A stretch of 64,000 bases of DNA. Origin: Escherichia coli (lineage in GTDB: Bacteria; Pseudomonadota; Gammaproteobacteria; Enterobacterales; Enterobacteriaceae). Every line of letters begins with the position of its first letter. The first letter of the stretch is position 1. The notes under the pieces were generated by a model that saw nothing but the letters and a program-made list of their open reading frames with translations, was not told where the DNA came from and ran no database searches. Positions 44,057 to 64,000 of this stretch are shown here, in pieces. The DNA lies in the NCBI RefSeq assembly GCF_048403405.1, contig NZ_CP183129.1. One strand, 5' to 3'. The translations under genes were made by a program, and so were the position numbers.

Positions 44057-47000
44057 TCAGCTGATACTGATGCCTGCGGTGGCTTTCTTCATCACCACAA
44101 CCAGCAAATCGCTGATACTTGCTGTGGGATACCAGTTATTCACCAGCCATGCTGACACCGAAAACTCCAGCGTCATGTGGCCGCGACCAGCTGGCATATC
44201 AATAACACCACTGTAAATCAGCGTATTATCCAGCGCGGTACGGTTATAAATTTCAGCACCGTTTTTCCGTACTATCAGGCGGCATGACGAATAAATATCG
44301 TTATTCTCCCGCTCATGTTTAGCGCCGCTGAATGCCACCGCCGGAATAACAATTTGCCTGTCAAAAGGCTGATCGTCATAAATCCTGACGGTAATGGTCC
44401 CTGATGGCCACCGCTCCGGTGCCCGGGAGTCCCGCGGAAAAGCCTTACCCACTGTTTTGACTATATCGCCTTCAATCTGGTTGGCTGACAGTTTCCCCTT
44501 AATCTGACAGTTCTCATTAATTGTGACATTGTTGAGCGTCCCGGCGTTCGCATTCACACTGCCACTGATATCTGCATTTTTAGCGGTCAGTTTTCCGTCC
44601 GGTGTCAGGGAAAATGCCGGAGGATTACCGCCGCTGGTAATGGTGGGAGCCGTCAGGCGTTTCAGGAACACGTCGTTCATGAATATCTGATCGCCCTGAC
44701 CAACAAACATCGGCTTTGTGTTGCCATTCGCAGGATTAATCATCGCAATCCTGTCTGCCGCCAGCAGCACCTGACTCTGCATTCCTGCTGGCGTATTCTC
44801 AATACCGGCACCGATACCCGCAATATAAAGGCGTCCGTCCTGCATCTGCTGCAGCTTCACAGCCCACATGCTGTTCAGATTATTATTTGTATCAACCTGA
44901 ACCTTCTGTATCTGCTGGATTGCCGCACTCTGATTTTCCAGTTTTTTATTGACGGTCTGCGTGATTTCATTGCTGACATCCGTAATGGACGTCCTGATTT
45001 CAGCCAGGTCAGGCGCAAGCTGACCGTTATCAATCTGCGTCCACAACTCCTGAGCCAGATGGGTTTTCCCTATCTCTCCTTTGAAAAAATTCAGATAGCC
45101 GGATGCATCATCACTCGGCTGGCCAACAGCCTCCACAAATGCCGATTTGCCAACGGTGTTCACACTGCGGATGTAAAAATAATAATCATGGCCCGGTTTG
45201 ATATTGATACTGGCAGCTATCCAGTACAGCGCCGAGCCAAGATAGCGGGCTGCGGTTTCAACCTGCCTGATATCCGCAATCCGCTTTTCCGAGAACCAGA
45301 ACTCAAACTGTACCGTCGGGTCATACACCGCAAGACGCGGGACCGCCGTTATCTGAAAATAGCCCGGCGTCAGCTCAATCCGCGACGGTGCTGCCGGTGC
45401 GGCAATCCGGAATGTGGTGGTGGCAGGTTCACCCTGCTGGCCATAGCTGTTTATCGCCCGCACCGTCAGGGTGTATTCCCCCAGCGGCAGGCCGCTGAAA
45501 CGGTGCTCCGTGTCTGCGGTGATGGCGGTGGTCACCAGTCTGGCATCCGTTCCCTTACCACTGGTCAGGCGCAGACTGAAGCGCACACCCTTCACCACCC
45601 GCGGCGTGTCCCATTTCGCCTGCGCCAGATACTGTCCGTCAGCTGCGCTCACCTCCACCGTCAGGTGCTGCACTGCCGGTGGGATGACGCTGTTCAGGGA
45701 ACCTGACTGCGGCTCAAAGCGGGCACCGTTATCCACGATGGCTTCTTTTTCCGGTACGTGCTGCACCGCCGTGATGGCAAAGGTGCCGTCCGTGTTTTCC
45801 CGGACGGAGACACAGCGGAACAGGCGACGGCGCAGTGACGGCAGGGAGAGTCCCCACACCCCGTATGTCTCCACACCATCAGGCAGGGTACTGACCTGTA
45901 TCCGGTCCGGCGCGGGGTGTTCGGTGATGTCCACACTCACCGGCTTACCGCTGCCGTTAATCAGGTTCACCGTGGCGGCACCGGTCTCCGGAAGTGTCAC
46001 TTCACGGTCCAGCGTCAGGGTGCGGGTGGCAGCATCAATGGACAGGACACGTCCGCCGGTCAGGGTCCCGGCATAGTCGTTATCACAGATTTCAATGATG
46101 TCACCGGGTGTGTGCCGCAGCCCCTGAGACCCGAGCGTGAAATCCACCGTCTGCGTTTCCAGCAGTTCGGTCTTTATCACCCACAGTCCGGCACGGTGGG
46201 CCTGACCGCGGCTGGTACAGCCGAACGCGTCCATCTTCAGCAGGTTGCGTCCGTAGCGCAGTATGGCTTCCGGGTCTTCCACCAGTTCCGTGGAGGTCTG
46301 CCAGCCGTTCTGCGGGTCGGTGTAATTCACCTCCACCGCCGTGTGCCGGTCCTTCAGGGCACTGAAGCTGTAGCGGAATCCCACGCCGTTATCATCCACC
46401 ACCACATCGCTGTTGGTGTACGGCCACACCACATCCGACGGGCGGTCCTGAACGAACGTCAGCGTCTGACCGTTCCATACCGGCATACAGCGCATCGCAG
46501 AGCAGAAATCACTGAGAACGTCCCACGCCTTACGCTGTTGTGCCAGGTACGCATTAAAGGTCATCCGCGGCTCGGTCCCCCCGAAACCATCCGGGACCGT
46601 CTGGTCGCAGTACTGCCCGATGGCATACAGCGCCCACTTGTCCACATCCGCCGCCCCCAGACGTTTTCCCATGCCGTAGCGCGGGTGAGTCAGCATGTCC
46701 CACAGGCACCAGGCCGGGTTGTTGCTGTATGCCGGTTTCAGACTGCCGTCCCAGATACCACTGTACGTGCGTTTTTCCGGGTCATAGTTTGACGGCACCT
46801 GGATGATGCGACCGCGGATATGGTAGTTCACCGTCATCTGCTGGCCGCCGAACTGCTCCGCATCCACCTGCAGCCCCACAATGGCCGTGTTCGGGTAGCA
46901 CTGTTTCACATCGATGATTTCGGTGTATGACGACCACAGCGTCTTATTCTGCAGCTGGTCCGTGGTGCTGTCCGCCGTCTCCCTGACCATCCGGATGTTA

Positions 47001-47530
47001 AAGGGCCGGGGAGGCAGATTATCCAGAATCACCGAGGCCAGGAACTGCGAGGTGGTCTTGCCGTTAATGGTGACATCCTTTTCCGTCACCCAGCGGCCAT
47101 TACGCTGTAACTGAATCAGAATCCGGACAGAGGAAGGATTACGGTCGCCCTTTGACGTGGTCTGCACCAGTGACTGCACCCCGAAGGTAACCCGCAGGCG
47201 GTCAATGTTCGCGGACGTAATGGTGCGCGTCACCGGTTTTGCCTTCGTCACTTCCACGCCCAGTCCGGTTTCAGCACCGGAGGACTCAAAGCCTTCCGGT
47301 GGTGTCTGCTCCTGCTCCCCGGCGCGCCAGACCGCCGTCACACCGTGTATCACGGGATTACCGTCCGTGTCCGTCAGCGGGGTTTTGTTCACCAGGATAC
47401 TCTGCAGTCCCTTCACCGGACCTTCTATCGGTCCCTCACCAATCGCATCAATCACGCTCATCATCTGCGTGGATTTGAGATTATCCTTCGCCTCACGAGG
47501 CGTGTGTGCCTTACCGCCACCTTTTCCCAT
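44057..47530 (-). CDS. J: tail tip host-specificity protein J
   Basis: 1157-aa ORF; N-terminus [38 protein letters not shown] and long collinear similarity to lambda gpJ. Confidence 0.95.
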
Positions 47531-47769
47531 ACAGCCTTCCCCTGAATAAATTAACCGCCACTTGCCATTCCGTACAGAAGTCGGATATCCTTCGCCCGAA
47601 AAGCATGAAACACATTTCTGCCATGCTAAAGAGAAACCCCGGTATCAGCAGATACCGGGGTTTTCTTTCATGCCCACCGATAATCCTGTTGGTTAAAACC
47701 GGTAATGGCATAAAAATTCTGAATATCTTCACATTTTCACAAACTGACTGTGGCGCGTATAATTTCTCT

Positions 47770-47866
47770 GCGTTAATTTTTTTGTCGTGATATAAGAATA
47801 ATTCCTTACACTTAATCTTCGTAACTCTCCCGCAGTTCCTGTCCGCGATCACTGCGGGATTTTTTT
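47770..47866 (+). ncRNA. candidate small RNA in I-J intergenic insert (prediction only)
   Basis: sigma70-like promoter TTCACA-16 nt-TATAAT (47736-47763) followed about 65 nt later by hairpin cccgcagt...actgcggg plus T7 (47828-47866); no plausible ORF. Confidence 0.3.
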
Positions 47867-47873
47867 ATTCTTT

Positions 47874-48554
47874 TTACCCCTGCCGCCCGATAACCACGAC
47901 CTTTCCGCCCCCGCCTTCATCACGGGTGCTGATGTCCTGGGATATACGGCGGGAGCCAACCAGCATTTCCCCGTAAGGCACCGGCATCGGGTTCCCCTGG
48001 GCAATCATGTTATCCAGTGAGGAAAAGTACGTGTTCTGTCTGCCGTTATCCGTTGCGCGGTAATCCGGTGTTTTTGCCTTCGGGGCCAGCATCTGGGCCA
48101 CACCGCCCAGAATCATGCTGGCTCCAAGTGAAAACAGCATCGTGGTGGCAGAAAAACCACCGGCTGCCAGGGCTGAACCCCATAACGCCATTGATGCCCC
48201 GGCAGTGAAGAAAGAGCCCACGATGGCTGCCGCCCCCAGCACAATCTGCAGTCCACCCTTTCCGGCCCCGGCCAGTCGCGGCACAATGTGGATGACCGTT
48301 CCCTCACCCAGCTGTTCGTGAAGACGGGCGTACACCGCCTCCGGTGCCGTGTCATAACCGGCAATACGTATCTGGTACCAGCCTTCGTTCATCTGACGGC
48401 GAAAGCCCGGCATCTGCATCGACAGGGCGCGAATGGCTTCCGCTGCCGTGTTCACATACAGGCTGAGGCGGCGGCCAAATCGTTGTAAATCCCCGTGAAG
48501 GCAGATGCGTGCCAGTGGCGGTGACGCCAGACTGAATGCGTTCGTCGTTGCCAT
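47874..48554 (-). CDS. I: tail assembly protein I
   Basis: 226-aa ORF MATTNAFSLASPPLARICLHGDLQRFGRR, lambda gpI-like. Confidence 0.9.
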   Translation of the reverse strand: MATTNAFSLASPPLARICLHGDLQRFGRRLSLYVNTAAEAIRALSMQMPGFRRQMNEGWYQIRIAGYDTAPEAVYARLHEQLGEGTVIHIVPRLAGAGKGGLQIVLGAAAIVGSFFTAGASMALWGSALAAGGFSATTMLFSLGASMILGGVAQMLAPKAKTPDYRATDNGRQNTYFSSLDNMIAQGNPMPVPYGEMLVGSRRISQDISTRDEGGGGKVVVIGRQG

Positions 48555-49185
48555 TTTTCGGAATACCTCTCCCGTTTACTCAGTTGTTCAGGCAGATGGT
48601 GAAGCAGCTCACCGTTGCCGCAGTAAATGGCGGCATGGTTCGGTACCAGCAGCACAGCAGAATATCGCCCGCCTGTGCAGAGGACAGGGGCACCCGGTAA
48701 AAGCCGGTGACCGCCATATTGTCCAGGTAAAGGTTCTGACCGTTGCGCCACCAGTCATCCTCGCGATGAAAATCCGGCATCTCAGTCCCCGCCAGATGAT
48801 AAGCATCCCGGAACAGCGTGTAACAGTCCGTCACCCCGTGCTCAAAGCGCCGTCCTGTCAGATGTGGCACACAGCGGAATTTGTGAATGTCACCCCGGCA
48901 GACCAGCCACCAGGGCAGTGCGCTTTTTATCTGCAGCCGCCGGTCAGCCTCGCTCAGCCAGGGCAGCCCACCGGGATGACTGTGGACCAGTGCCACAATC
49001 TCCCCCTGCATCTCTGCCCGCAGCCAGTCTTCCGGTGCGATACGAAAATACGCCTCCGGCTCTGCAGAAATATTCACACAAGGGATATACCACTCCCCCT
49101 CCGGCGTGCTTATCACGAAGCCGCACGACTCCGCAGGCGCACACCGCCGGGCATGCGCCAGAATCGCTGATTCAGTCTGTGTCAT
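48452..49185 (-). pseudogene. K: tail assembly protein K (JAB/MPN plus NlpC/P60), frame broken by 1-nt deletion near 48632-48645
   Basis: N-terminal part (MTQTESAILAHARR...HSHPGG...TDCYTLFRDAY...DILLCC) in one frame ends at 48580; NlpC/P60 His motif (VPNHAAIYCGNGELLHH) continues in another frame (ORF 48452..48751). Confidence 0.75.
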
Positions 49186-49195
49186 AAACCGGGAT

Positions 49196-49894
49196 TTACT
49201 GCGAAAGTTTATTAATGGAAAGGAAACCGCCAAAATTGCCGACATTCCTGCGCAGTTCACACCCGCGCATGCACTTGCTGCATCTGTCCTTACGGATATC
49301 CGTGGTGGGGTTGTCGAACTCATCCGCCACCGCAGGACCGTTATACCCACATTCATCTCCCCGGTAATCCCACATACAGGTGTTCGCCAGCATGATGCGA
49401 CCGGGAAACAGCGCCCCGTCCGTCTCGGTCGGTGTAGCCAGCACAAACGAGGCCGTCATGGCTGTCAGCTGCGACATCTGCTCCACCACCCAGCGGTCAC
49501 TCAGCTCCTGCTCCGGGTCCGCCTCCGGATTGCCCGCAACGAAATTCACCGCATCCAGAAAACGGGCATACACCCGGCGGCGGACCACCGTGGCCCCCAC
49601 CAGACTCTGCAGGTCTTCCGCCATCCCGGTGACCAGACCGAACAGATTGGACACCGTCAGCGACGGTCTGGCACTGCTGCCCCGGCCGTTCATCTCAAAG
49701 CCGCTGCCGTCAATCGGGTATGCCTCATACTTACGCCCCTGCCAGGTGACCGGCTCCCCTTTTTCATTCAGCTCATTACAGAAAAAATACCGCTCACCAC
49801 CCTGTACCGTCAGGTCGATTTCCCAGAGTACCACCCGCGGTGACTGCTCTGACTTAACCGACTCGTTCAGACTTTCTTCGCGAATATCCTGCAT
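49196..49894 (-). CDS. L: minor tail protein L
   Basis: 232-aa ORF MQDIREESLNE...GNFGGFLSINKLSQ, lambda gpL-like. Confidence 0.9.
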   Translation of the reverse strand: MQDIREESLNESVKSEQSPRVVLWEIDLTVQGGERYFFCNELNEKGEPVTWQGRKYEAYPIDGSGFEMNGRGSSARPSLTVSNLFGLVTGMAEDLQSLVGATVVRRRVYARFLDAVNFVAGNPEADPEQELSDRWVVEQMSQLTAMTASFVLATPTETDGALFPGRIMLANTCMWDYRGDECGYNGPAVADEFDNPTTDIRKDRCSKCMRGCELRRNVGNFGGFLSINKLSQ

Positions 49895-50223
49895 CAGTTC
49901 ACCACCTGCTTAAACTCCGCGCTGAACTCAACGCGCAACATCCCGACCCGTGCAGACCACCCGGCACAGGTCACCTTTATCTGCCGGTATGCATAGGGTG
50001 GCTTCCACAAAAATGCCTTCCAGCCACCGTGCTCTGCCAGGAACGCTTCCAGATGCCGGGCCTCCTCCCGGGTCACGGAAAGCGTCACCCTGTATGTTTT
50101 CAGGTCAGCATTCAGCCCTGCCGCCATACGCTGTGAGTACCCGTCACCAAAACGCACTTCACGCACCGATGGCTGCGAGTTCACCTCCATATCCGGCTTC
50201 ACTTTCCAGCGAAAGGTTTTCAT
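49894..50223 (-). CDS. M: minor tail protein M
   Basis: 109-aa ORF in lambda M position. Confidence 0.85.
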   Translation of the reverse strand: MKTFRWKVKPDMEVNSQPSVREVRFGDGYSQRMAAGLNADLKTYRVTLSVTREEARHLEAFLAEHGGWKAFLWKPPYAYRQIKVTCAGWSARVGMLRVEFSAEFKQVVN

Positions 50224-52793
50224 CGACCGCTCCCTGATAACAGACCGCCATCACGCAACTGCAGCCGGAGTTCATCCTGTGCCCCCTTGCGGGCCATGTC
50301 ATACACCGCCTTCATCAGCTGCGACCCCGCCTGTCCGTTGATACCGTCGTTCTGAATCACCACGTGATTGTTCTGATTAAAATTAATACCTTCGGCCCGC
50401 CGCATCTGCGCCGGACTTCCGGCACCGCCGACATAACCACCTTCCGCATACCCGCGCATCAGACGATACAGGTTGCCGACACCAATCCGGCTGGTTGCCT
50501 CCTTCGTGAAGACAAATTCACCACGGTGAACAATCCCCGCTGGCTCATATTTGCCGCCGGTTCCCGTAAATCCTCCGGTCGCAAAATGGAAGTTCGCCGC
50601 CGCAGCCTGAATGGCTGTACCGCCTGACGCGGATGCGCCACCACCAACAGCCCCGCCAATGGCGCTGCCGATACTTCCGACAATCCCCACCATTGCCTGC
50701 TTCAGAAAAATCTCTGTCAGCATGGACAGCACAGAACGGGTGAAACCACGCCAGTTCTGCTCACTGCCGGTCAGCATCGCCGCCATATTCTGTGCAATAC
50801 CGTCAAAGGTCTGCGTGGCCGCGTTTTTAACCTGCGAAAAACTGTCCGTCGCACTTTCCGCCCACTCGCCCCAGCCGGACTTCATCCCGGCCATCCAGCT
50901 TCCACGAAGCTGCTCCTCCGCAGACCAGGTGTTCTTCAGTGCCGATGTGGCCTTCGCCAGCGCAGCCGGATTATCACCGTACACCTCACGAAGGCGCTGC
51001 TCTTCCGACTCCCGCTGCGCCTGACGGTCAGTGAGGCCGCGGGCTTTTGCGCTGATTGCCGCCTGCTTCGCGCTCTGCTGCTGTTCAAACCGCGCCGCCT
51101 GCTGTGCCAGCTCATTCAGCCGCTTCTGGTGTTCTATCTTGTCGCCCAGCTCAGCCAGCTGGCGTTTGTACTCCAGCGTTTCTTTCTCATGGGCCAGCAG
51201 GGATTTTTCCTGCTCAGATAACTGCCGTTTCGTGGCGGCCTCTTTCAGGATCACATACTGATTTTCCGCTTCCCATAAATCCCGGCGCTGCTGGCTGATT
51301 TTCTCATTCACACCGCTGTGTTTTTCCAGCGTCCTGAGCTCGGTTTCAAGCGCCAGCATGGCTGCATGCGCCCGGTCTTCCTGGCGCTCACCGGCAGACA
51401 CCTTCACACCTGACGGCTTTTTCAGCGTCGATTCATAATCCTTTTTTGCCGACGCCATCAGCGTGTTGTAATCCGCCTGCAGGATTTTTCCGTCTTTCAG
51501 GGCCTTATTCAGCTCTTTCTGACGGGCGGTATATTTATCCAGCGGCGTCTGCAGGCGCTCATACGCCTTCTGCGCCTCTCCGGTATACTTCAGCTGTGAC
51601 GCCTCACGCTCAGCCCGGTCCCTTGCCGCCAGTTCACCGGCTTTTTCCATATCCGACTGCAGCGTGGCCGCTGCCAGACCCAGACGGGCATTTTCCCGGT
51701 CATCCCATGCCCCCTGAAGGTTCGCACGAAAAGAGGAGGTCTTTCCCCGGCGCTGGCTCCGGCTCTGGTACCACTGCCATTTTTTATCCGCCTCATCAAA
51801 TGCCTTCTGCGCACTGGCGAGCATATCCGCTGAGGATTCAGGACGACCGATATCCAGAATGGCATCCCACATCGATTTGAATGCCTTCCCTGTTTTATCC
51901 GCCCAGGTCTCCAGTGTTCCCATGTTTTCTTTCAGGCGACGGGTCTGCTCATCAAAGCCTTTCGTGGCGATATCGTTCGCCGCCTGCAATGCCCCGGCCT
52001 CGTCTCCGGAACGCTGCAGCTGTGCAACATACGCAATCTGCTCTGCCGTCACGTTACGGAACTGGCGCGCCATCGCCATCAGTCCCGACGTCGGGTCAGT
52101 GGTCAGCTTCCCGAAGGCTTCAGCGACTTTATCCACCTCCACACCGGATGCAGACGCAAAACGCGCGACACTCTGGTTGATGGCATCAAACTGTTCACCA
52201 CCACGCACACCGGCATTCATCAGGGCTGCCAGTGACTCTCTCGCCTGGTTAAACGTCAGCCCTGCTGCCTGCCCGGCTCTTGAGAGAGTCAGCATACGAT
52301 CGGCAGTCAGTCCGGACTGATTACCGGAAAGAACCAGGGTTTTATTAAACGCTGAAAGCGTGGAATCTCCCTGGTACCAGGCGTACACCAGCGCACCTGT
52401 CGCCACCGCCAGCGAGGTGACCCCGACCATCGGCAGGGTGATCGCACCGGCGAGCCCCCTGAACATGGGGATCATCCCGCCGAAGGAGTCCTTCACCTGA
52501 CCGCCCTGTTGCAGCAGGATCAGCCAGGGATTCTGACCACCGGCAAGCTGCGTGGCGATATCCGTAAACTGTGCGGGCAGGGTTCGCATGGCCGCTTTAT
52601 ACTGCCCGACGGAAATCCCGGCTTTTTGTGCAGCCAGCGCCTGGCGGCTCAGGCCCTGTTCAACAGCACTGGCGGTTTTTCTGGCGTCGGTATCCAGACC
52701 TGAAAAATGACGCCTTACCCGGCTCATCTGCTCATCGAAACGGACAGCATCCAGACTCAGGTCAATAACAAGATCACCAACCGGCTGGGACAT
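50220..52793 (-). CDS. H: tail tape measure protein H
   Basis: 857-aa ORF MSQPVGDLVIDLSLDAVRFDEQ..., lambda gpH-like. Confidence 0.9.
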   Translation of the reverse strand: MSQPVGDLVIDLSLDAVRFDEQMSRVRRHFSGLDTDARKTASAVEQGLSRQALAAQKAGISVGQYKAAMRTLPAQFTDIATQLAGGQNPWLILLQQGGQVKDSFGGMIPMFRGLAGAITLPMVGVTSLAVATGALVYAWYQGDSTLSAFNKTLVLSGNQSGLTADRMLTLSRAGQAAGLTFNQARESLAALMNAGVRGGEQFDAINQSVARFASASGVEVDKVAEAFGKLTTDPTSGLMAMARQFRNVTAEQIAYVAQLQRSGDEAGALQAANDIATKGFDEQTRRLKENMGTLETWADKTGKAFKSMWDAILDIGRPESSADMLASAQKAFDEADKKWQWYQSRSQRRGKTSSFRANLQGAWDDRENARLGLAAATLQSDMEKAGELAARDRAEREASQLKYTGEAQKAYERLQTPLDKYTARQKELNKALKDGKILQADYNTLMASAKKDYESTLKKPSGVKVSAGERQEDRAHAAMLALETELRTLEKHSGVNEKISQQRRDLWEAENQYVILKEAATKRQLSEQEKSLLAHEKETLEYKRQLAELGDKIEHQKRLNELAQQAARFEQQQSAKQAAISAKARGLTDRQAQRESEEQRLREVYGDNPAALAKATSALKNTWSAEEQLRGSWMAGMKSGWGEWAESATDSFSQVKNAATQTFDGIAQNMAAMLTGSEQNWRGFTRSVLSMLTEIFLKQAMVGIVGSIGSAIGGAVGGGASASGGTAIQAAAANFHFATGGFTGTGGKYEPAGIVHRGEFVFTKEATSRIGVGNLYRLMRGYAEGGYVGGAGSPAQMRRAEGINFNQNNHVVIQNDGINGQAGSQLMKAVYDMARKGAQDELRLQLRDGGLLSGSGR

Positions 52794-53187
52794 ATCTCAC
52801 ACCTCCCGGAATCCCCGCTGAAGCCATCATTAATGCGGCATCATCCACCATGACATCCGCCACATCCGCAGACGATAAAATATCGCGCCCTCCGTCCCCA
52901 CCGAACCGGACGCCTCCGGCAAGTCCTGCCGCTTTCTGCATCAGCATTTTGTCCTCATCCGGCCTCTCCACCTGCTCTTCCTCATGCCGGGGGACAAGCA
53001 GACTGAAATCAGAGGGATGCATATCCGGATCGCAAAAAAACAGGCTGAGTACAGCGTACGTCAGCCCGGAAAAATGCATATCCAGCTGGGTATCCTGAAA
53101 ATAATGCGTGCGGTAAAAACGGTGCCAGTCGGCATATTCGGTGGATGTCATCCCGGCAAGCATGGCGCGCCAGTCGGGTCTCCCCAT
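52774..53187 (-). CDS. T: tail assembly chaperone T frame (expressed as G-T fusion)
   Basis: 137-aa ORF in -1 frame relative to G; joins G through slippery site at 53232-53238. Confidence 0.8.
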   Translation of the reverse strand: MGRPDWRAMLAGMTSTEYADWHRFYRTHYFQDTQLDMHFSGLTYAVLSLFFCDPDMHPSDFSLLVPRHEEEQVERPDEDKMLMQKAAGLAGGVRFGGDGGRDILSSADVADVMVDDAALMMASAGIPGGVRYVPAGW

Positions 53188-53213
53188 CTCACGCGCCAGT
53201 CTGAGGGCAAAGT

Positions 53214-53645
53214 TCAGCTCGCCGTCAAAGACTTTCCCGCAGAAAAATCATCATCAGTCAGCGTGTTATTTTTCGCCACTTCAGTAATATCAGTATCCGG
53301 ACGAACAGCTTCGATCATCCCGGACAGGCACAACACCACGTCTTCCGCCCGGGCAATGGCATCGGCAGGCCAGGTGGTGAGCACTTCCTGCTCTATCTTC
53401 ATCACGGCCTCATTCATTGACGGTGACTGCGTTTTCTGTGGATGGTTATGCCACAGGGACATCGCCACCAGAAACGCGCCGGTTCTGACGAGATCTTCCA
53501 CGCTTACCTGCAGGTTGCCGCAGGATTCTGCCTGTTCTGCACGCCGTTTCAGGAGGGCAAGATGCTCGATACGCTGCAGCGCAGACAATTCGGAAAGCGT
53601 GACAGACACACCGTTATATTCAAATTGTTCTGTTTTCAGAAACAT
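53214..53645 (-). CDS. G: tail assembly chaperone G
   Basis: 143-aa ORF MFLKTEQFEYNGVSVTLSELSALQRIEHLAL. Confidence 0.9.
   Translation of the reverse strand: MFLKTEQFEYNGVSVTLSELSALQRIEHLALLKRRAEQAESCGNLQVSVEDLVRTGAFLVAMSLWHNHPQKTQSPSMNEAVMKIEQEVLTTWPADAIARAEDVVLCLSGMIEAVRPDTDITEVAKNNTLTDDDFSAGKSLTAS
53232..53238 (-). promoter_or_regulatory. programmed -1 ribosomal frameshift site (GGGAAAG) for gpG-T
   Basis: heptamer G GGA AAG near 3' end of G in zero frame; -1 frame continues into T ORF. Confidence 0.8.
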
Positions 53646-53658
53646 GTATTACCTCCGT

Positions 53659-54411
53659 TTACCCTGCAGCGCCCGCTTCAGTAACGGTGACTTCAGCCAC
53701 TGCGGCGAACTGACCATTTCCGCTCACCACAGGGATCTGCACCTTACCTGTCGCCACGCCGTTTACCGTAATTGTCATATCTTTCACACTAATGGTGGCT
53801 TTCGACGGATCGGCGGAAACCGCTCTGAACGTCTTGTCGGTTGCACTTTCCGGCTCAAAAGAAACCGTCAGGGTGGTTGTTTTCCCTTTTGCCACCGTAC
53901 CGGATGTCGGCGTCACCTTAATCGCACTGACCGGCGTAATTTTGCTGCGTTCTTCCGCTACAGAAGGTTTACCCACGTTAGTGACTTTCACCGTGCGGGT
54001 GATCACTTCTTTCGCCGTCACGGCCTTACCGATACTGCTGACCCAGCCACGAAACACATCCACCGTGCCATTCGGAAAACGGATTTTATAGGCCCGGACA
54101 TCGCCGCTTTCAAACCAGCCTATAAGCCCTTTCTGGCCTTCCTCTCCCGGTTTCCAGGCCAGCGTAAAACTGGTATCACCTGCAGATTTCTGCCCCTGCC
54201 CGGTCGCGGTCCAGTCCGCGTCTTCATCATCCAGGTAGTTATCATCGTAGGATTCTGCCGTCATCTCGCCCGGCGTCAGATCCTTCACCTTAGCCAGTCG
54301 CTGCCAGTCATCGTCTGACAACGGGTTTGCATAAGCATCACCCTTGCCGTTGTAAACCCACAGAGTGGTACCGGCACCTTTTACCGGCTCAAGGGGATTT
54401 GGTGTTGCCAT
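53659..54411 (-). CDS. V: major tail tube protein V
   Basis: 250-aa ORF with lambda gpV-like sequence and C-terminal Ig-like region. Confidence 0.9.
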
Positions 54412-54418
54412 ATCGTCC

Positions 54419-54814
54419 TCACATCTCGTATGTAATGGAATAAGTCAGATCTGCAGAACTCCATAACGCCATATCGTCATCACGACGATACTCATAGCCC
54501 TGCGTAACCATCGTGGTAATCAGTCCTGCCAGTGCCGGGATCGCGGTCATCGCCGGGTAAATCCGGCTTTCCATCCACTGATCAAGCTCTGAATCCGGTA
54601 CCTGTGCCGGTAAAAACACCTCAATATGCAGCGTGGCCCGCCAGGTATCTGCATCCAGCTCTTCACCGGTATACTCTGCATCCGTCAGATAAACCGCGAT
54701 CGCAGGAAAATCCTCTTCGTCAAAAACAACGGGGCGACCATCAAACAGCGTCGCCCCGTGTTCATGCTGCTCGAGTGCATCCAGCACTGCGGCACGAATG
54801 TCAGTGTGTTTCAT
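54419..54814 (-). CDS. U: tail terminator protein U
   Basis: 131-aa ORF in lambda U position. Confidence 0.85.
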
Positions 54815-55386
54815 CGTTTTATCGCAATCCTCAGTTGTTGTTTCAGCGCGTATGCCAGTTCTTTAGGCAGGCGTTCACGCCGGATACGGTCAACATTCTC
54901 ATCAAATGCCTGTTTCAGTGGGGCCGCCATCGGGATTTTCACCACCTGAATGGGAAGGCGATTACGCTTTTTCCTTCCCTTGTCGTCATTGCCCTCCTCA
55001 TATCTGGCCTGAGGAAGACGTTGCATAACATGCCAGCGCCCATTATTTAATCGCTGGATAAATGCCCGCTGATAACGATGCTGACCGGCTTTGAGTATGC
55101 TGTCCGGACGACGCCCCAGCATTCTGATCCCCAGCTTAATCACAGGGAGATCACCGCGGTTAACGATAATTCTGGCATTCGGATTTCTGACCGTCGCCCG
55201 TTTCAGTCTGGACCGTTCCTTAACCAGTTTCCGGCGAACCTTTGTCTCCCGGGCAACCTGTGATGAAGACTGATTAATCGCCGTTGTGGCCACGCGGTTA
55301 ATGGCCATTGCTGAAGCCGCCGGAATGGCGTTTTTACGAACCCGGCTCAGATTGTCAATCGCCTGATCAAGCCCTTTTATCGCCAT
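54811..55386 (-). CDS. Z: tail completion protein Z
   Basis: 191-aa ORF in lambda Z position. Confidence 0.85.
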   Translation of the reverse strand: MAIKGLDQAIDNLSRVRKNAIPAASAMAINRVATTAINQSSSQVARETKVRRKLVKERSRLKRATVRNPNARIIVNRGDLPVIKLGIRMLGRRPDSILKAGQHRYQRAFIQRLNNGRWHVMQRLPQARYEEGNDDKGRKKRNRLPIQVVKIPMAAPLKQAFDENVDRIRRERLPKELAYALKQQLRIAIKR

Positions 55387-55401
55387 AATTTCACCCTGCG
55401 T

Positions 55402-55755
55402 TTATCGTCGCCGGTTAACTGCGGGTGGTTGACCACGGTTGAGCCAGAGATAACAGCTGCCCCCGTCATCCGGAGAAACACGATCCACCCAGAATATCTC
55501 ACCATTAATGGTCAGCGTGTCACCACGCCGCACGGCACGCACCGTATCCGTCCGCACAAATAATGACGGGCTGCTTCCTTCAATACGGACCCCGCCACCG
55601 GCAAACCCCAGCGACTCCGGATCGTCAAAAACCCCCTGAACTTCGCTGCCACACTGTGCCCCCGAGGTGAACTGCGCACAGAGCCCCATCACTTCAACGA
55701 TCGTACTGTCTACCCCGGCGAGGGCAGCATCAAAGGCATTCTGAAAATCACGCAT
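55402..55755 (-). CDS. FII: head-tail joining protein FII
   Basis: 117-aa ORF in lambda FII position. Confidence 0.85.
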   Translation of the reverse strand: MRDFQNAFDAALAGVDSTIVEVMGLCAQFTSGAQCGSEVQGVFDDPESLGFAGGGVRIEGSSPSLFVRTDTVRAVRRGDTLTINGEIFWVDRVSPDDGGSCYLWLNRGQPPAVNRRR

Positions 55756-56179
55756 ATTCAGCCGTTCCGTGCTGTATCATGGCCGTTGCCAGTGATGATG
55801 GCACCAGAACACGCATACCCCGTAACGCCAGCTCAACGGGACGACCTGTCTCCGGGCAATACCCCATTACTTGCAGGCACTTCCGTACCCGGACGGCTTT
55901 AACATCATCCGGAGCATCCGTGTTGTTCAACTGCTCACCATCGTCTGTGTGATTTTGATCAGCCCCGCTCTCATCAGAGTGCATAATGCCCTCCGGGGAA
56001 ACAGCAAGCTCCTCTTCCCACTCAGACACACGTTGAGCAATATCCGCAGCACTCCCCGACATATCCGCCTCGCGCCCCAGCAGGCCAGCCAGTTGACGAA
56101 GACGATTCAGATTTTCTTCTTTTGTTGCCATCTCAGCCTCCTGTGAAAAAAGACACGGGGGCATTTCGCCCCCGCTCAC
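55748..56179 (-). CDS. FI: DNA packaging protein FI
   Basis: 143-aa ORF in lambda FI position. Confidence 0.8.
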   Translation of the reverse strand: MSGGEMPPCLFSQEAEMATKEENLNRLRQLAGLLGREADMSGSAADIAQRVSEWEEELAVSPEGIMHSDESGADQNHTDDGEQLNNTDAPDDVKAVRVRKCLQVMGYCPETGRPVELALRGMRVLVPSSLATAMIQHGTAEYA

Positions 56180-56182
56180 GGA

Positions 56183-57211
56183 TTATTTCACCTGTACCAC
56201 CACAAACTCATCCGGATCCGGCAGCACCATCAGCGGAGCGGACTGCGTCATGGTGAATTCACAGGACGGATCGCCCACGGTCAGCCAGTGTTTCGGGTAA
56301 CGGGAAGAAGCCACCACTCCTTCAGACAACGCCTGTGCATCCTTAATGGCACCATAGCAACGAATCCCCTCTGCCGCCGTATTCCCCAGCACCAGCATGC
56401 CCTCCGGCAGATAACGTTTTTCGGTACCGTCCTCTGCCACATAAGACGTTTTCGCCACCACAATGGCCAGATCGCCGTAATACCCCTTGAAGGACACCAC
56501 CGCCCCCAGGTCTTTCACTGCCGTTTCGAGTTGTGAATTTGAGCCGCGACGGGTATCCAGTTTTTCGCGGAACAGCTTAAAGCCATTCAGCAGACGCCAG
56601 ACCGTACCGTCCATAATGGCGATATTCACAAGGCCGCTGGCCTGATCGCAGTAGAGGTCAATATCATGCGTCGGATCAAACGTATCACGGTCCTGCTCAG
56701 ACCATTTTTTACCGTCAGCCTGCTCAATGTTATTTCCTTCAGAGCGCCCAAAATCCACCTCGACAGTATCAAACTGATCCCCTTCCATGGTGTATTTGCC
56801 ATACAGCACGGCATTCACCGCCTGCATTTCTTCCACCTGGACAATGGCGTGCTCTTCCTGTTTGAGGTTATCGGTAATGATACGCAGACGACGGTAGGCC
56901 GGGTCGTTCAGCTGAGCCGGATCTTCACCAGGAAGGCGCTCAACCGCCTGCTGGTAATTAAATTCGTGTTTGGGCTTGACGTAGCCCGGACGTAACACGC
57001 GGGTTTCACCACCGCGATGGCGAAGCACTTTTCCTTCAACGATCGGGGAGACATAGGCCGCCACCGGCGTTTTTCCGGTAATTTTGTCCAGCATCACCTC
57101 TTCGGTGTGGAAATTCACCGTACGGCGGAAAAACAGCTCCAGAAACAGCGCACGGAATTTAACTTTTTGTTCGGTATAACCGAGTAACTGGCGGGTCGTA
57201 AACAATCCCAT
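56183..57211 (-). CDS. E: major capsid protein E
   Basis: 342-aa ORF, lambda gpE-like (..TMTQSAPLMVLPDPDEFVVVQVK). Confidence 0.95.
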   Translation of the reverse strand: MGLFTTRQLLGYTEQKVKFRALFLELFFRRTVNFHTEEVMLDKITGKTPVAAYVSPIVEGKVLRHRGGETRVLRPGYVKPKHEFNYQQAVERLPGEDPAQLNDPAYRRLRIITDNLKQEEHAIVQVEEMQAVNAVLYGKYTMEGDQFDTVEVDFGRSEGNNIEQADGKKWSEQDRDTFDPTHDIDLYCDQASGLVNIAIMDGTVWRLLNGFKLFREKLDTRRGSNSQLETAVKDLGAVVSFKGYYGDLAIVVAKTSYVAEDGTEKRYLPEGMLVLGNTAAEGIRCYGAIKDAQALSEGVVASSRYPKHWLTVGDPSCEFTMTQSAPLMVLPDPDEFVVVQVK

Positions 57212-57268
57212 AAATCAGTTCCTTTCATTAAGAAATCAGTCAGGCCAACGCGGTGGCCTGATAACGTG

Positions 57269-57616
57269 TTACGGCAGCGCCGCGTGACTCAGGGCACTGC
57301 CGGTAAAGGCGTTGGCCTTTTTGTGTTCATCCACACTTTCAGGCCAGCGGATTGCCTCCGTCGCAAAGGTCCCCGACTTGTAATAGGTCAGCACCTCCTC
57401 TGTGCCTTCAAGCGGCAGTACCAGTATGCCAACCGCACTACCGGCTTTCTGTCCGTCCCAGACCACCAGTTTCCCGGTGGCCCCATCCAGCATCAGGGGT
57501 GTCAGTGCCGGTGTTGCCGAGGAAATCCCGCTGCTGCCTGTGGCGGTGTGAGCCGGATCATTACCGGCAAAAATACGTACTTCCGCACGCTGTTCAGTGA
57601 TGGTTTTCGTCACCAT
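57269..57616 (-). CDS. D: capsid decoration protein D
   Basis: 115-aa ORF, lambda gpD-like. Confidence 0.9.
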   Translation of the reverse strand: MVTKTITEQRAEVRIFAGNDPAHTATGSSGISSATPALTPLMLDGATGKLVVWDGQKAGSAVGILVLPLEGTEEVLTYYKSGTFATEAIRWPESVDEHKKANAFTGSALSHAALP

Positions 57617-57652
57617 ATTGTTAAAACCTCGTATTGATGTTCAGCACTGACT

Positions 57653-59157
57653 TCATGGCATGGCCATGAGCATTTTCACGCCCGCATCACCGTCTTCTGA
57701 CGCCTGTGACACGCCCCCCTGGACCGCAGCCGGTGAATGGTTCGCCATGAAATGTTCAAACAGGGCGGTTGTGGATGCAGAGACCGGTTCTGCCTTACCT
57801 GATCCCGCAGCCAGCACAGCCCGGGCGCTCTCCACAGTCATTCCCGGGCAGGCAGCCAGCTGTTCAGCCTGCGCCTCAGCCCCTTTTGCCTCATCCAGTG
57901 CCATGATCTGATCACGGAGTGATGGTCCGGCATTCGCCTGCGGTGAAGCAGCCAGGATCGGGCGGGCTTTTTCCACCGTCATCTCCGGCATCGCCGCCAG
58001 CGTTGCCGCCAGTTGTTCACGACCGTTCGCTTCTTCACACGCCATAATGCGATCGGCTTCACTCTGTGCGGATGCCACCGGCTGCTGCGGTGCCGCCGCG
58101 GCCAGAATCGCCCGGGCCTGTTCAACGCTCATGCCCTGTTGCCCTGCCAGCATCGTGGCAAGCTGTTCACGTCCTTTCGCTTCCTGGCATGTCAGGATCC
58201 CCATCACTCGCTGGTTCTCCTGCACGGCGGCTTCCGTTGCAGTTAATTGCGGCATAGTGCCTCCTCTGACATTACTGTTCAGCGCCGTGGCCATCACACT
58301 GATGGCATCCGACGCATTGATTAATTCATCCGCCAGCCCGGCCTCAATGCCGGACTGACCTTCAAAAACGGCAGCCTCTGTTCCCGTGACCGCATCAACA
58401 GACAGACCGGTATACATCGCCACTTTTTCGGCAAACATCCGGCGCGCCACATCAATCCGCTGCTGCATGTCCTGGCGAACCTCTGCCGGCAACGCTTCAA
58501 ACTGATTGCCATCCACCTTGTGCGCTCCTGAGTAAATCAGCGTGATATCCACACCGGCCTGCGCCAGATGACCGGCATAGCTGACATGGCTCATCATCAC
58601 GCCAATGGAGCCGATACGGGATGTCTGGGTAACCAGCCGTCGGGAGCAGGCCGACGCCAGCAGCATGGCTGCAGAACAGGCCGTGTCATTACACAGTGCC
58701 CAGACCGGCTTCTGCTGCCGGAGGCGGTAAATCATGTCAGCGCAGTCAAACGCGCCGGCGGCCTGCCCGCCCGGACTGTCAATGTCCAGCAGTATGCCCC
58801 GCACCTGGCTATCTGCCATTGCCTGCTGAAGACAGGCGACAATGCCGTCATAGCCAGTCATTCCGGAAAATGGCCGCATCCCCCCAGCCGGTGCACCAGC
58901 GTGCCGGTCACCGGCAGTACCGCAATACCGTTCACCACCCGGTAAACACGGGCCGGTCGTTTACCTCCGGCCATGTACTCGTCCGTTTCAGCCAGCATCC
59001 CGGGAGCATCAAGCTGTACCTGCTGTTGCGGTACCGAAAGACTTGCTGCCCCCATCTCGCGCCCGAGCGCGCAAAAGAAAACCCGCGCATAGGCGGGCTC
59101 CAGAAGCAGCGGTTCATTGAATGCTGCGGCAATAATGTGTGAAAGATTACGTCTCAC
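57653..59157 (-). pseudogene. C: head protease/scaffold C-Nu3 (S49 family), frame broken by 1-nt deletion in a C6/G6 run at 58880-58885
   Basis: N-terminal ORF 58858..59157 (MRRNLSHIIAAAFNEPLLLEPAYARVFF...GIAVLPVTGTLV) ends just after the homopolymer; remainder (MRPFSGMTGYDGIV...) continues in another frame. Confidence 0.8.
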
Positions 59158-60739
59158 GTGGTGTTGTCTCCTCTTCCGGCCTGCGACTCTCCGCTATCTG
59201 CTGCTGATACGCCTGCGCTATCCACACCGGACGTGAGAGTCCGGCTTTTTCCCGCTCTGCAGATTCCCTGACCTGCTGGCGGAAAATGTCCTGATAATCC
59301 TCGCCCATCAGCGCCAGCTCTTTCTCATACGTGCTCAGTCCGGCCTCAATGCGCATCACTGATTCCTGAACCTCCTTGAGCCCGTCAATGGCCATTCTTC
59401 CGGCTCCAATCCACTCAGCCCGTGACCAGGCTGATCGCGCCTGATAAAAATCAAAACGCGCCCGTGGCGGACGAATAATCCCCCGAAGAAGTGCCTCTTC
59501 CAGCCAGCAGGAAAACATCTGCGTGGCCAGCCGGGACGCAATAAATTTTCGCCGCCCCATAAAATAGCGCCACGACTCATTGGCGGATGCGCGGGCACTT
59601 GAATAACTGACCTTCGAGTAATCACGGGACAACTGTTCGTAGGAAACGCCAAGACCGGCGGCGATATACCGCAGCAGCGCCTGTTCAAGCGCCGAAAATC
59701 CATTGTCTGAATCCTGCGCGGTCTGAAGTTTCAGATCATCACCGGGGAAAAGGTGCGGAATTTTGACACCGCCCAGCGTCACGCTATTCGTGTCATACCA
59801 GGTGGAGAACTTCTCCAGAATATTAATAAGCGGATTATCCTTCTGCCCCTGCGGCGCACCGGCGATATATTCAAAGGCCTTTTCGGTATCAAGTTCACTT
59901 TCAATCGTCGCTGCATACATCGCCTTCACTATGGCCGACTGAAGCTGTGTTGCCTGCAGGGAATCGAGCATCTTCAGCCGTTCCATTACGCTGTAAAACT
60001 GATTGGCCCCACGGGTCTGCCCGTCCTCCACCGGCTCGAAAATATGCAGCATGGCCGGACGCCCGGTGGGAAGTTCACGCGGGATCCGTTCCCATCGTCC
60101 ACTCCCGGAGCGAGGAAAATCATCCTCACAGATATGGTACGCAACGGCACGACCATATCGATCGACCTCCACACCGGCCCGCAGAAAACGGTTCCCCATA
60201 CCGTGTCCTGGCGTGTCCACCCGTTTCGGACTCACGGCTTTAAAACGCGTACGAAACAGTTGCGTGCTCTCCGTATCCCAGACCGGCTGCACAAAGATTT
60301 CGCCGTTAAACGCATGAACGCCCACACCTTCACGGATAAATTCCGTGAACGTGCGTTTCCCTTCCATGTCGATCTCGCCAAACATCCCTTCGGCGTATTC
60401 CGACCAGGCCGCCTCCACCTCATCGACAAAACTTTTTGCCGCAGTCTCCCGCATCCCCAGCCAGCGCCAGTTCGGACGGTAGCTGATCAGAAACATATGC
60501 CCGACAATATGATCCTTATGCAGGGCCACCGCATTAGCCGCTATCCCGTTATTGCGCACCAGATCATCTGCCCGGGCATTCCCCAGACGCAACGCAGGCA
60601 GCAGGGCTGCATCGGCACTCTGCGCCGGTGGCAACCACTCCGCCATTTGCCCGCCAAATCCTGCGCCGCCCCCGTTGTAGCTGAGACTCTCACGAAGCGG
60701 AACGCCGTTCACATCAATCAGGACAGGCGTTCGTTTCAT
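59147..60739 (-). CDS. B: portal protein B
   Basis: 530-aa ORF, lambda gpB-like. Confidence 0.95.
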   Translation of the reverse strand: MKRTPVLIDVNGVPLRESLSYNGGGAGFGGQMAEWLPPAQSADAALLPALRLGNARADDLVRNNGIAANAVALHKDHIVGHMFLISYRPNWRWLGMRETAAKSFVDEVEAAWSEYAEGMFGEIDMEGKRTFTEFIREGVGVHAFNGEIFVQPVWDTESTQLFRTRFKAVSPKRVDTPGHGMGNRFLRAGVEVDRYGRAVAYHICEDDFPRSGSGRWERIPRELPTGRPAMLHIFEPVEDGQTRGANQFYSVMERLKMLDSLQATQLQSAIVKAMYAATIESELDTEKAFEYIAGAPQGQKDNPLINILEKFSTWYDTNSVTLGGVKIPHLFPGDDLKLQTAQDSDNGFSALEQALLRYIAAGLGVSYEQLSRDYSKVSYSSARASANESWRYFMGRRKFIASRLATQMFSCWLEEALLRGIIRPPRARFDFYQARSAWSRAEWIGAGRMAIDGLKEVQESVMRIEAGLSTYEKELALMGEDYQDIFRQQVRESAEREKAGLSRPVWIAQAYQQQIAESRRPEEETTPRET

Positions 60740-60942
60740 AACCTCACTCCCAGCGGACGACGGCGACGTCGGGTTGTCCCCAGTACCGACTCCGCATCAT
60801 TGATCGCCCGGTTAAGCTCATCCAGAGAAGCCGCCGTATATTCAATTCTGCGACCATCTTTCTGGACAGACACCACCCGTTTACCGGTTAATAAATCAAG
60901 GCGCGCCTGACGCAGCGCCTGCAGTTCAGCGACTGTAACCAT
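60736..60942 (-). CDS. W: head-tail joining protein W
   Basis: 68-aa ORF in lambda W position. Confidence 0.85.
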   Translation of the reverse strand: MVTVAELQALRQARLDLLTGKRVVSVQKDGRRIEYTAASLDELNRAINDAESVLGTTRRRRRPLGVRL

Positions 60943-62854
60943 TCACTCCTCCGGACAGCTTCGCTGCCAGTTCTTTAAGGGTTGGCCGGGTCGTCTCTTC
61001 TTCCCGGGATTTTGCCAGTACAGCCAGATCAAGCTGCCAGCGTTGCACGGACACACGTAATGCCGCATAGGCATACACCAGGCAGTCCAGCGCTTCGTTA
61101 CGCCGCTTTTTGTTATCCCACAGCAGACGCATCTTTCCTTTTTCCCACTTCTCCACAAGCTCTTCCGCGACCAGTTGCTGCGCCTCTGTCTGCGAAAAAA
61201 TCTCCGGATCATCAGGAAAACGGATGGCATACGACGTGGCTTCATCCGCAGGAGTGGGATCGGCTTTCATACGGGCATAGAGAATTTCTTTTGCGGTGTC
61301 CGTCCCCACTTCACACAGATACACGCCCCGCTGATTGCGGGTTTTCGGCATGGTGATCACCGGCTTGCCATAGACAGATGCGCCTTTTACCGGCAGCACC
61401 CGGAAAACACCGTGTTTTTTTGACCTCTGATAGACAATTTCACCATCGATCCCCCCGGTGTCCCAGCAGACACGGGAAATGGTCATTTCGGTGCCATCTG
61501 CATGGCAGTATTTTTTGTTGATCGCCGCATCCACACGTAACAGCGTCTCTTCCTCATCGGGACGGCCCATAATGATGATTTTATCCACCAGAAAAGCTTC
61601 CTCTCCCGGTGCCCATCCCCAGACATACATCTCAAAACGGTTTCGCTGCGAGTCAATGCCCGCCGTCAGATAAACCACCCGGGCTGGCACCGCCGCCGTG
61701 TAATGCACGACCTTATCCATCAGTACCTGGTGATCGAGTTTTTCGCCCACGGCCTCTTCCCAGGTCTCGCCCAGCGTGGTGTTCACAAAGGTTTTCAGGC
61801 CGTTGGGATCTTTCAGTGCATCCAGCCAGTCATAGACTATCTGTACCCAGGTGGTGAACGGACTGTACGCCGTCCAGATATGGAACGTGATGGAGCGCGG
61901 CGGCGGAATTTCATTATCCGCGGCGCTGAAAAACGTCAGACCGTCACGGGTCCACATCCCCGTGTTTTCACAGATCCACCGCCCGTTGCTCTGGTCAAGC
62001 TCAGACTGATGGATCACGCAGCCATGATGTTCACAGAGGTAGAAAACGCTTTCGGGGCTGTCCTTCTCCCATTTAAGGCCAAAAGGCGTGGATTCATCGC
62101 CAAATTTCAGATACTGCTCCTCCCCACAGTGTGGGCAGGGCACATAAAAACGCATGAAATGCGCCGACTCGTTGGCCGCTTTTTCGATCTGGCAGGTGCC
62201 TTTGATTTTAGGCGTCGAGCCGCGAATGGATTTGGGCCATACAGAGCCCTCAATACGTTTATCCCCAAGCAGGGTTGGCGACCCCTCTTTTTCGACATCC
62301 GGTTCGAACGAGGAAAGTTCGTCATAGCAGACCACGTCCACGGATTTTTCACGGTAGTTTTTAGCGGCAGCCCCGCCCAGGCACCAGAAGCCCACGCCCG
62401 ATGAAAAACGTTTCAGCGTGAGGGTATTATCACGATGTTTACGCCCAAACCACGGTGCAAGATCGAGTAAAACCGGCACATCCCTGATCGTGGGTTCCAC
62501 ATGAGATTTCATAAAATCTTCAGCAGCAGAATCCGTGGGCTGGAAAAGAAGGCTGTTGCGTGATTTATGCTCAATAAAATAAGCCTCCACTCCCAGCAAC
62601 ATCTTTGTATAACCAACACGGGCAGATTTAATCAGATTAACAGTGCGGATCCGGTCATTCCCCATGCTGTTCATGATGGCAACCTGAAACGGCAGTGTTT
62701 CCCACCGCCCCGGGGTGTAAGATGACTCTTTCGGAAGGTAATAATGTCGATCTGCCCACTGAACTGTCGTCAGAGGGACAGGAATTTTTAGCGCAAGGAG
62801 GCCGGTTGCTATCGCTCCTGCAGAATTAGCCGCCCTCAGTTCGTCTGAAATCAT
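60926..62854 (-). CDS. A: terminase large subunit A
   Basis: ORF 60926..62896; lambda gpA-like (..[14 protein letters not shown]..); start probably the internal Met at about 62854, overlapping Nu1. Confidence 0.9.
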
Positions 62855-63374
62855 CAATCCACCTGCGCACATTCTCACCGGCTTCAGAAGCCACATCGGA
62901 TGCTTTCGCGATTTCAGTTTTCACAGCATCAAGATGTACGGGTGATATATCAGGGTATTTACGCTGCAGTGTCTGAGGGACACGGACAAGGATCCCTGAT
63001 ATATTCTGTGCCACTCGCTGAAAGATGTAGGTAAATAACTCCGTCTCGAGGACAAGGCCTTCCTCACGAGCATTTTTCAGCTCCTGTGCATCGGCCTGTG
63101 CCTTCGTCAGTCGGTAACGTTCGTAATCAATGGTGCAGGGCTGAAGGTCTGATTCGCTGGCAGCCCTCAAATCCTCGATCTCTTTACGGAGTTTTTCGTT
63201 TTCAATATCAGCTTCCCTCTGCGCATACCACTGAATGGCAGCAGTTGTATCAAAAACTGATTCAGTCCCTTTCCCTCCACCAGAAACTAGTGGTAACCCC
63301 TGACTCTGCCAGGCGGTGATGGTCCTGACATCAACGCCAAAAATATCGGCCAGTTTTTTCTTATTGACGTTCAT
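62826..63374 (-). CDS. nu1: terminase small subunit Nu1
   Basis: 182-aa [31 protein letters not shown] (HTH), lambda Nu1-like. Confidence 0.9.
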
Positions 63375-63543
63375 ACACTCCCCCGGGAACCAGAAAGGAT
63401 CTGAAAATGGCGTTTTCTAACAAAAACAGCCTTTGTCAGATCCTTTTATATTTTTAAAATTCTATTGATAATCAATCAGTTAAAAAGAAGAAGAACGGAT
63501 CTGATTTTTCCCTAAAAATTTTCATAAATAGCGAAAACCCGCG

Positions 63544-63947: not shown

Positions 63948-64000
63948 CATGGTGTTCACAGAACACGCAGTTACCGGACACATCAGTTTTCCATTCGCTC

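What the first reader, a model, noticed from the sequence alone, without database searches (positions are those of the whole stretch)
48452..49185. Prophage tail gene K has Cys and His catalytic motifs in different frames
The JAB/MPN motif and NlpC/P60 cysteine (TDCYTLFRDAY) lie in one frame ending at 48580; the NlpC/P60 histidine region (VPNHAAIYCGNG) lies in another. An intact K is needed for lambda-type tail assembly, so if real this renders the prophage tail-defective. The shift is near 48632-48645 (ctgctgg/taccg).
Basis: partly seen in the sequence, partly recalled or inferred. Interest (0 to 1): 0.4.

Follow-up and report, generated by a model that had tools for sequence, protein, structure and literature searches.

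The report
Prophage tail gene K broken by 10-bp deletion
A lambda-type prophage inserted in the E. coli ompW gene has its tail-assembly gene K split into two reading frames by a 10-base deletion seen in no other genome. This is either ordinary prophage decay or an assembly error, and the same window contains two likely sequencing errors.

Summary
Gene K (window 48452-49185, minus strand) is 734 bp instead of 744 bp. It matches the intact K of E. coli ML35, 2D and others at every aligned base, except that 10 bases are missing between window 48647 and 48648 (coding strand TTGGTGCTTC). Codons 1-179 carry the complete JAB/MPN domain and the NlpC/P60 Cys121, then run into 22 frameshifted codons and a stop at 48580-48582. 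Codons 184-247, with His187 and His199, lie in another frame.

The deletion is private to this sequence. It is absent from all 5426 complete RefSeq E. coli genomes, IMG/VR, the metagenome contigs and the GTDB species genomes. The intact junction occurs in 90 IMG/VR contigs.

K is required for lambda tail assembly, so a real deletion would make the prophage tail-defective unless K comes from another prophage. But the window also has two C7-to-C6 homopolymer deletions in the same GCATCCCCCC context. One splits topA at a site where many public assemblies, long-read ones among them, show the same split. The other splits the prophage head protease gene. The assembly therefore carries indel errors.

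I cannot tell whether the deletion is real (about 0.5) or an artefact (about 0.45). Either way it is an ordinary, low-interest finding.

The parts
48452..49185 (-). Gene K (tail tip assembly protein K, annotated 'C40 family peptidase'). It is 734 bp here against 744 bp in intact copies, and is frameshifted.
   Evidence: Apart from the 10-bp gap it is identical to WP_000194723.1-encoding genes.
48583..49185 (-). Upstream reading frame of 201 codons. Native residues 1-179 are followed by 22 frameshifted residues (WYRTMPPFTAATVSCFTICLNN). It holds the JAMM motif (E19, H68-x-H70-x7-S78-x2-D81) and the NlpC/P60 Cys121.
48580..48582 (-). Premature stop codon of the shifted frame.
48647..48648 (.). 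Deletion junction. Ten bases present in all relatives are missing between these two positions (coding strand TTGGTGCTTC, + strand GAAGCACCAA). The junction has no microhomology. The right breakpoint lies inside the 12-bp palindrome TTCGGTACCGAA of the intact allele. The deleted stretch spans two imperfect 8-mers, TGCTTTGG and TGCTTCGG.
48455..48646 (-). Native codons 184-247 of K (VPNHAAIYCGNGELLHH...), now out of frame with the start. They contain NlpC/P60 His187 and His199/200.
47874..48455 (-). Gene I (tail assembly protein). In intact copies its GTG start overlaps the K stop (GTGA), so early termination of K may also reduce I translation. This last point is an inference.
49196..49894 (-). 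Gene L (minor tail protein L), intact.
44057..47530 (-). Gene J (tail tip attachment protein), intact.
57653..59157 (-). Prophage gene C homologue (S49 head protease). It is split by a 1-base deletion in a C run: C6 at 58880-58885 here, C7 in strain 2D. This is the only other difference from the 2D prophage in 26 kb.
37984..64000 (-). Lambdoid prophage inserted in ompW (PPompW type). It runs from the tail-fibre end to the terminase genes and continues beyond the window. It has no substitutions against the prophage of E. coli strain 2D.

Best explanation
In this sequence, K is a frameshifted pseudogene created by a strain-private 10-bp deletion inside the NlpC/P60 domain, in a very recently acquired lambdoid prophage at ompW.

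Taken at face value, translation gives a 201-aa product. It has an intact JAB/MPN domain and a truncated NlpC/P60 domain that keeps Cys121 but lacks the catalytic histidines and the last 64 residues. A domain cut through its core should not fold, so K function would be lost (inference). Early termination 125 nt before the K/I overlap may also lower I expression (inference).

gpK is a required, non-structural factor for assembly of the lambda tail tip (J, I, L, K, then H and M). The prophage on its own would therefore make DNA-filled heads but no functional tails. It could produce infective particles only if another lambdoid prophage in the cell supplied K.

Shown: the deletion, its uniqueness and the domain split. 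Inferred: the loss of function and the phenotype.
For: - Frames and motifs.
- A 10-bp gap in an otherwise identical alignment.
- Domains split across the two frames.
- Intact K is 247 aa in relatives and in resequenced lambda.
- K is required for tail assembly: PMC12617516. It is absent from virions: PMC10721106.
- A 10-base loss outside any homopolymer is not the error type seen elsewhere in the window, where the other two indels are 1-base C-run deletions.
- Defective prophages are common. This is established knowledge, not tested here.
Against: - The deletion is found nowhere else: 0 of 5426 complete E. coli genomes, 0 in IMG/VR, 0 in metagenome contigs, 0 in GTDB species genomes. The 201-aa product is not on record.
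- The prophage has no substitutions against strain 2D over 26 kb but has two indels. The chromosomal flank has 1 substitution and 1 indel over 37 kb. An indel-heavy spectrum like this is unusual for real divergence.
- At least one of these indels, in topA, matches a split seen in many other public assemblies. The assembly is therefore not error-free.
- The junction shows no microhomology. The retained TGCT-GG is what the two imperfect 8-mers share, which could also result from a consensus collapse.
Confidence: 0.5

Rival explanations
1. The 10-bp gap is an assembly or consensus artefact, for example a long-read consensus collapse or mis-polishing at a site that differs between paralogous prophage K genes. 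The real prophage would then have an intact 247-aa K and may be fully functional.
For: - The window holds two 1-base C7-to-C6 deletions in the same GCATCCCCCC context.
- The topA deletion breaks a gene that is normally indispensable. The same 279-aa topA fragment is on record in 698 blocks of public assemblies, including NCTC assemblies in which topA and, in one, acnA are split into several fragments.
- All three indels are private to this sequence, while there is only one substitution in 63 kb.
- The K deletion is absent from every collection searched.
- K is a multi-copy repeat in E. coli genomes, which is a setting where polishing errors occur. That last point is general knowledge, not tested here.
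- There is a precedent in the same gene. The 1982 lambda reference J02459 lacks one G in K, and this produced the long-standing 199-aa annotation.
Against: - Typical residual long-read errors are 1-base homopolymer indels, not 10-base losses in mixed sequence.
- A8 and T8 runs and one C7 run in the window are called as in relatives, so the consensus is generally good.
- No reads are available to test this.
Confidence: 0.45
2. The split is functional. Either K is expressed by programmed ribosomal frameshifting, or it works as two separate useful polypeptides: a stand-alone JAB protein plus a C-terminal fragment.
For: The upstream product keeps a complete JAB/MPN domain. There is no other support.
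Against: - The arrangement is not conserved in any other genome or contig. A programmed frameshift would be conserved.
- The break falls inside the NlpC/P60 domain (profile position about 65 of 105), not between domains.
- The downstream piece has only 64 native codons.
Confidence: 0.02

Closest known systems
Bacteriophage lambda gpK (tail tip assembly protein K; Prok-JAB + NlpC/P60, annotated 'C40 family peptidase')
   Same: It is 87% identical in protein sequence to lambda K over 197 aa. The intact allele has the same 247-aa length as K of resequenced lambda. It has the same JAB + NlpC/P60 architecture and the same position between L and I in the tail operon.
   Different: Here the gene lacks 10 bp and is read in two frames. 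The catalytic Cys and His of the NlpC/P60 domain are separated, and the last 64 codons are unreachable from the start codon.
Intact K of PPompW-type prophages (WP_000194723.1 in E. coli ML35, 2D and VR50; PPompW_14040 and others)
   Same: It is identical to the ML35 copy at every aligned base, and the whole 26-kb prophage segment shows no substitutions against strain 2D. The insertion site in ompW is the same.
   Different: Two private deletions: 10 bp in K and 1 base in gene C.
The K frameshift in the lambda reference sequence J02459 / NC_001416
   Same: It is an apparent frameshift in the same gene, seen in a single record. K is annotated there as 199 aa because a G is missing after position 14266, relative to other lambda and lambda-derived phage records such as DE3 and HK629/630.
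   Different: It is a 1-base difference in the JAB region near the 5' end, not a 10-bp loss in the NlpC/P60 domain. I did not look for a published discussion of it.

Membership tests
Lambda gpK / tail tip assembly protein K family | N-terminal prokaryotic JAB/MPN domain with the JAMM motif (E...HxHx7Sx2D) | tested here: met
   Pfam PF14464, E = 3e-15, residues 3-105 of the window's upstream product. E19, H68, H70, S78 and D81 were read from the translation.
Lambda gpK / tail tip assembly protein K family | Complete C-terminal NlpC/P60 (C40) domain with Cys and His in one polypeptide | tested here: not met
   The intact relative has PF00877 at residues 111-224. In the window, the upstream product no longer scores for this family, and profile positions 65-105 appear only in another frame. 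By descent the gene belongs to this family, but it is a broken copy.
Lambda gpK / tail tip assembly protein K family | Sequence homology to lambda K | tested here: met
   BLASTP of the intact allele against lambda K: 171/197 identical, E = 3e-138.
Lambda gpK / tail tip assembly protein K family | Position in the tail operon between L and I, upstream of J | tested here: met
   The ORF order H-M-L-K-I-J on the minus strand matches the annotation of strain 2D and of lambda.
Lambda gpK / tail tip assembly protein K family | Required for tail assembly (function) | not testable with these tools
   Taken from the literature on lambda only (PMC12617516).
Genuine pseudogene (as opposed to a sequencing artefact) | The lesion is supported by independent reads or by a second independent genome | tested here: not met
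   No other genome or contig carries the junction. Raw reads are not available.

The most novel reading that the evidence does not exclude
The deletion is real and was selected. The host lineage disabled a newly acquired prophage by knocking out a non-structural tail assembly factor. This would keep an intact stand-alone JAB/MPN protein and the rest of the late operon, for example as a step towards domestication, or as a satellite-like dependence on K supplied by co-resident lambdoid prophages.
Probability: 0.04. Interest if true: 0.3.

Novelty: already known. Interest (0 to 1): 0.08.

Why it matters
It matters little beyond annotation of this strain. If the deletion is real, this ompW prophage cannot build tails by itself and should be scored as defective, unless another prophage supplies K.

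If it is an artefact, the prophage may be fully active, and the assembly needs polishing. The split topA and the split head protease gene point the same way.

The practical lesson is that a frameshift call from a single assembly should not be turned into a phenotype without reads.

Tried and rejected
- **Programmed frameshift or a functional split gene.** Rejected. The junction is in 0 of 5426 complete E. coli genomes and 0 IMG/VR contigs, against 90 contigs with the intact junction. It is also in 0 metagenome contigs and 0 GTDB species genomes.
- **Finding the source genome or an independent assembly by exact product look-up.** The 201-aa K fragment and the 408-aa C fragment are not on record.
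- **Searching the protein database with the frameshifted tail.** This returned only P0001, a 60-aa fragment from another E. coli with a different frameshift. It was not informative.
- **Slippage as the deletion mechanism.** The junction has no microhomology. The loss is 10 bp, not the 8 bp expected from the imperfect TGCTTTGG/TGCTTCGG repeat. The mechanism is left open.
- **DNA fold of the deletion site.** I gave the wrong coordinates for the intact allele, so I discarded the result. The palindrome TTCGGTACCGAA was read directly.
- **PDB sequence search for K.** It found only a distant JAB-domain match, 2kks.
- **Rfam search of the I-J spacer.** Nothing above chance.

Full report
**What is there**

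The tail genes lie on the minus strand in lambda order: H (50220-52793), M (49894-50223), L (49196-49894), K (48452-49185), I (47874-48455) and J (44057-47530).

Translation from the K start at 49185 gives MTQTES...HSHPGGLPWLSEAD...GVTDCYTLFRDAY...AQAGDILLCC. Twenty-two unrelated residues follow, then a stop at 48580-48582. The rest of K, VPNHAAIYCGNGELLHH...AAASACM, is in another frame and ends at the normal stop at 48452-48454.

Pfam confirms the split:
- The intact homologue has Prok-JAB at residues 3-105 and NLPC_P60 at 111-224.
- The window's upstream product scores only for JAB.
- NLPC_P60 profile positions 65-105 appear only in the downstream frame.

**Cause**

The best matches in the phage collection and in 5426 complete E. 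coli genomes all span 861 bases for my 851-base query. In the alignment, the window matches strain ML35 at every base except one 10-base gap. Coding-strand TTGGTGCTTC is missing between window 48647 and 48648.
- Intact sequence...CTG CTG TGC TGC TTT GGT GCT TCG GTA CCG AAC CAT..., reading LLCCFGASVPNH.
- Window sequence: ...TGC TGC T|GG TAC CG...

Native residues 1-179 are therefore kept, residues 184-247 are shifted out of frame, and Cys121 is separated from His187 and His199.

The junction has no microhomology. The right breakpoint sits inside the palindrome TTCGGTACCGAA. The lost bases span two imperfect 8-mers, TGCTTTGG and TGCTTCGG.

**Context**

Window 37984-64000 is a lambdoid prophage inserted in ompW, of the kind that phage records call PPompW.

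Against the prophage of E. coli strain 2D, the 26 kb in the window has no substitutions and only two indels:
- the 10 bp in K;
- one base in a C run at 58880-58885, which splits the S49 head protease gene, the lambda C homologue, at 57653-59157.

Three more complete genomes (ECO_2_R, ECO_1_S and MSB1_7C) match window 40000-60000 at 99.9% identity over spans 11 bases longer than the query. That is the length expected if they have both sites intact, although I did not align them.

The chromosomal flank, window 1001-37983, is nearly identical to strain 4621. That strain has an intact ompW and no prophage there. The flank differs by one substitution and one single-base deletion. The prophage is therefore a very recent arrival in this lineage.

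**Is the deletion real?**

It is private to this sequence:
- no complete RefSeq E. coli genome has the junction;
- no IMG/VR contig has it, while the intact junction is present in 90 IMG/VR contigs;
- no metagenome contig has it;
- no GTDB species genome has it;
- the 201-aa product is not on record.

The error profile of the assembly matters here. The single-base deletion in the chromosomal flank shortens a C7 run to C6 at 17509-17514 and splits topA into 607-aa and 279-aa ORFs. That exact 279-aa fragment is on record in 698 blocks of public assemblies. These come from different lineages (98.3-99.0% identical to the window). They include NCTC assemblies in which topA, and in one case acnA, is split into several fragments. 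This site is therefore a recurrent source of the same split in public assemblies, which points to sequencing error.

The deletion in the prophage protease gene has the same form and the same context, GCATCCCCCC. Of the three C7 runs expected from relatives, only one is called as C7, and it sits in a different context.

The assembly therefore contains indel errors. The overall count of three indels to one substitution in 63 kb is not what real divergence usually looks like.

Against an artefact, a 10-base loss in mixed sequence is not a homopolymer error. The consensus is otherwise clean: the window's A8 and T8 runs show no differences from relatives. I cannot separate the two readings without reads, and I put a real deletion at about 0.5 and an artefact at about 0.45.

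**Consequence if real**

Recent structural papers state that gpK is required for lambda tail assembly. They also report that it is not detected in the virion and was not resolved in tail structures (PMC12617516, PMC10721106). PMC7291167 notes its peptidase domain.

A product cut through the core of the NlpC/P60 domain should be inactive (inference). The I start (GTG) overlaps the normal K stop, so coupling to I may also be lost (inference).

However, K acts as an assembly factor, and E. coli genomes typically carry several close K homologues (median 2 matching places per genome that has any, up to 17). Supply of K in trans is plausible. If the protease frameshift were also real, the prophage would be head-defective too.

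**Comparison with known systems**

The gene is an ordinary member of the lambda K family by descent. It is 87% identical to lambda K, with the same synteny and the same domains. It is a broken copy. Nothing suggests a new system. A programmed frameshift is excluded in practice, because the arrangement is not conserved anywhere.

One related point came up in passing. The classical lambda reference J02459 / NC_001416 lacks a G after position 14266, compared with other lambda and lambda-derived phage records such as DE3 and HK629/630. That is why K is annotated there as 199 aa, with its first 46 codons in another frame. It is a precedent for an apparent K frameshift that exists in only one record.

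**Verdict**

The finding is an already known kind of thing, a prophage pseudogene or an assembly error, and is of low interest.

Noticed in passing
window 17509-17514 (topA, minus strand, about 16669-19270): topA is split into 607-aa and 279-aa ORFs by a C7-to-C6 change relative to strain 4621 and five other near-identical genomes. The same 279-aa fragment is on record in 698 blocks of public assemblies from other lineages, including NCTC assemblies with several other split genes. It is almost certainly a recurrent homopolymer sequencing error.
   Followed up: yes
window 58880-58885 (gene C homologue, S49 peptidase, 57653-59157, minus strand): The prophage head protease gene is split by a one-base deletion in a C run, in the same GCATCCCCCC context as the topA site. 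It is intact in strain 2D. Three other genomes have spans of the length expected if it is intact there too. It is probably the same kind of error.
   Followed up: partly
window 47531-47873 (between I and J): A 343-nt unannotated spacer, about 91% conserved in PPompW-type and some Stx prophages; lambda's I-J gap is only about 60 nt. It has a very stable hairpin at about 47625-47662 (z = -4.1). On the + strand, antisense to the tail genes, it has a promoter-like site at 47736-47763 (11 of 12 matches) and a terminator-like hairpin with a T7 tract at 47842-47868. This could be a small antisense RNA of about 100 nt. No Rfam family matches.
   Followed up: partly
L102 (lambda J02459, 14266/14267) compared with L103 (lambda PV340536): The lambda reference sequence lacks one G in K (GGAGGC-TATTTCC against GGAGGCGTATTTCC). 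This puts the first 46 codons, including the JAMM glutamate, in another frame and gives the classical 199-aa K annotation. Other lambda and lambda-derived phage records such as DE3 and HK629/630 have the extra base; PV340536 and HK629 were checked and encode, or are expected to encode, a 247-aa K.
   Followed up: yes
window about 27730 (yciQ) and about 36781 (yciF): These are single-base differences from strain 2D. The window shares them with strain 4621, where yciQ and yciF are annotated as frameshifted. They look like pseudogenes specific to this lineage rather than errors private to this assembly.
   Followed up: partly
window 39671-39869 (minus strand): A full-length Rfam match to IS009 (RF02111, 225 bits) lies inside the tail fibre assembly gene region of the prophage. 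Other Rfam hits are STnc180 at 14613-14815, STnc490 (in IS200) at 20473-20596, and the trp leader at 29464-29557.
   Followed up: no
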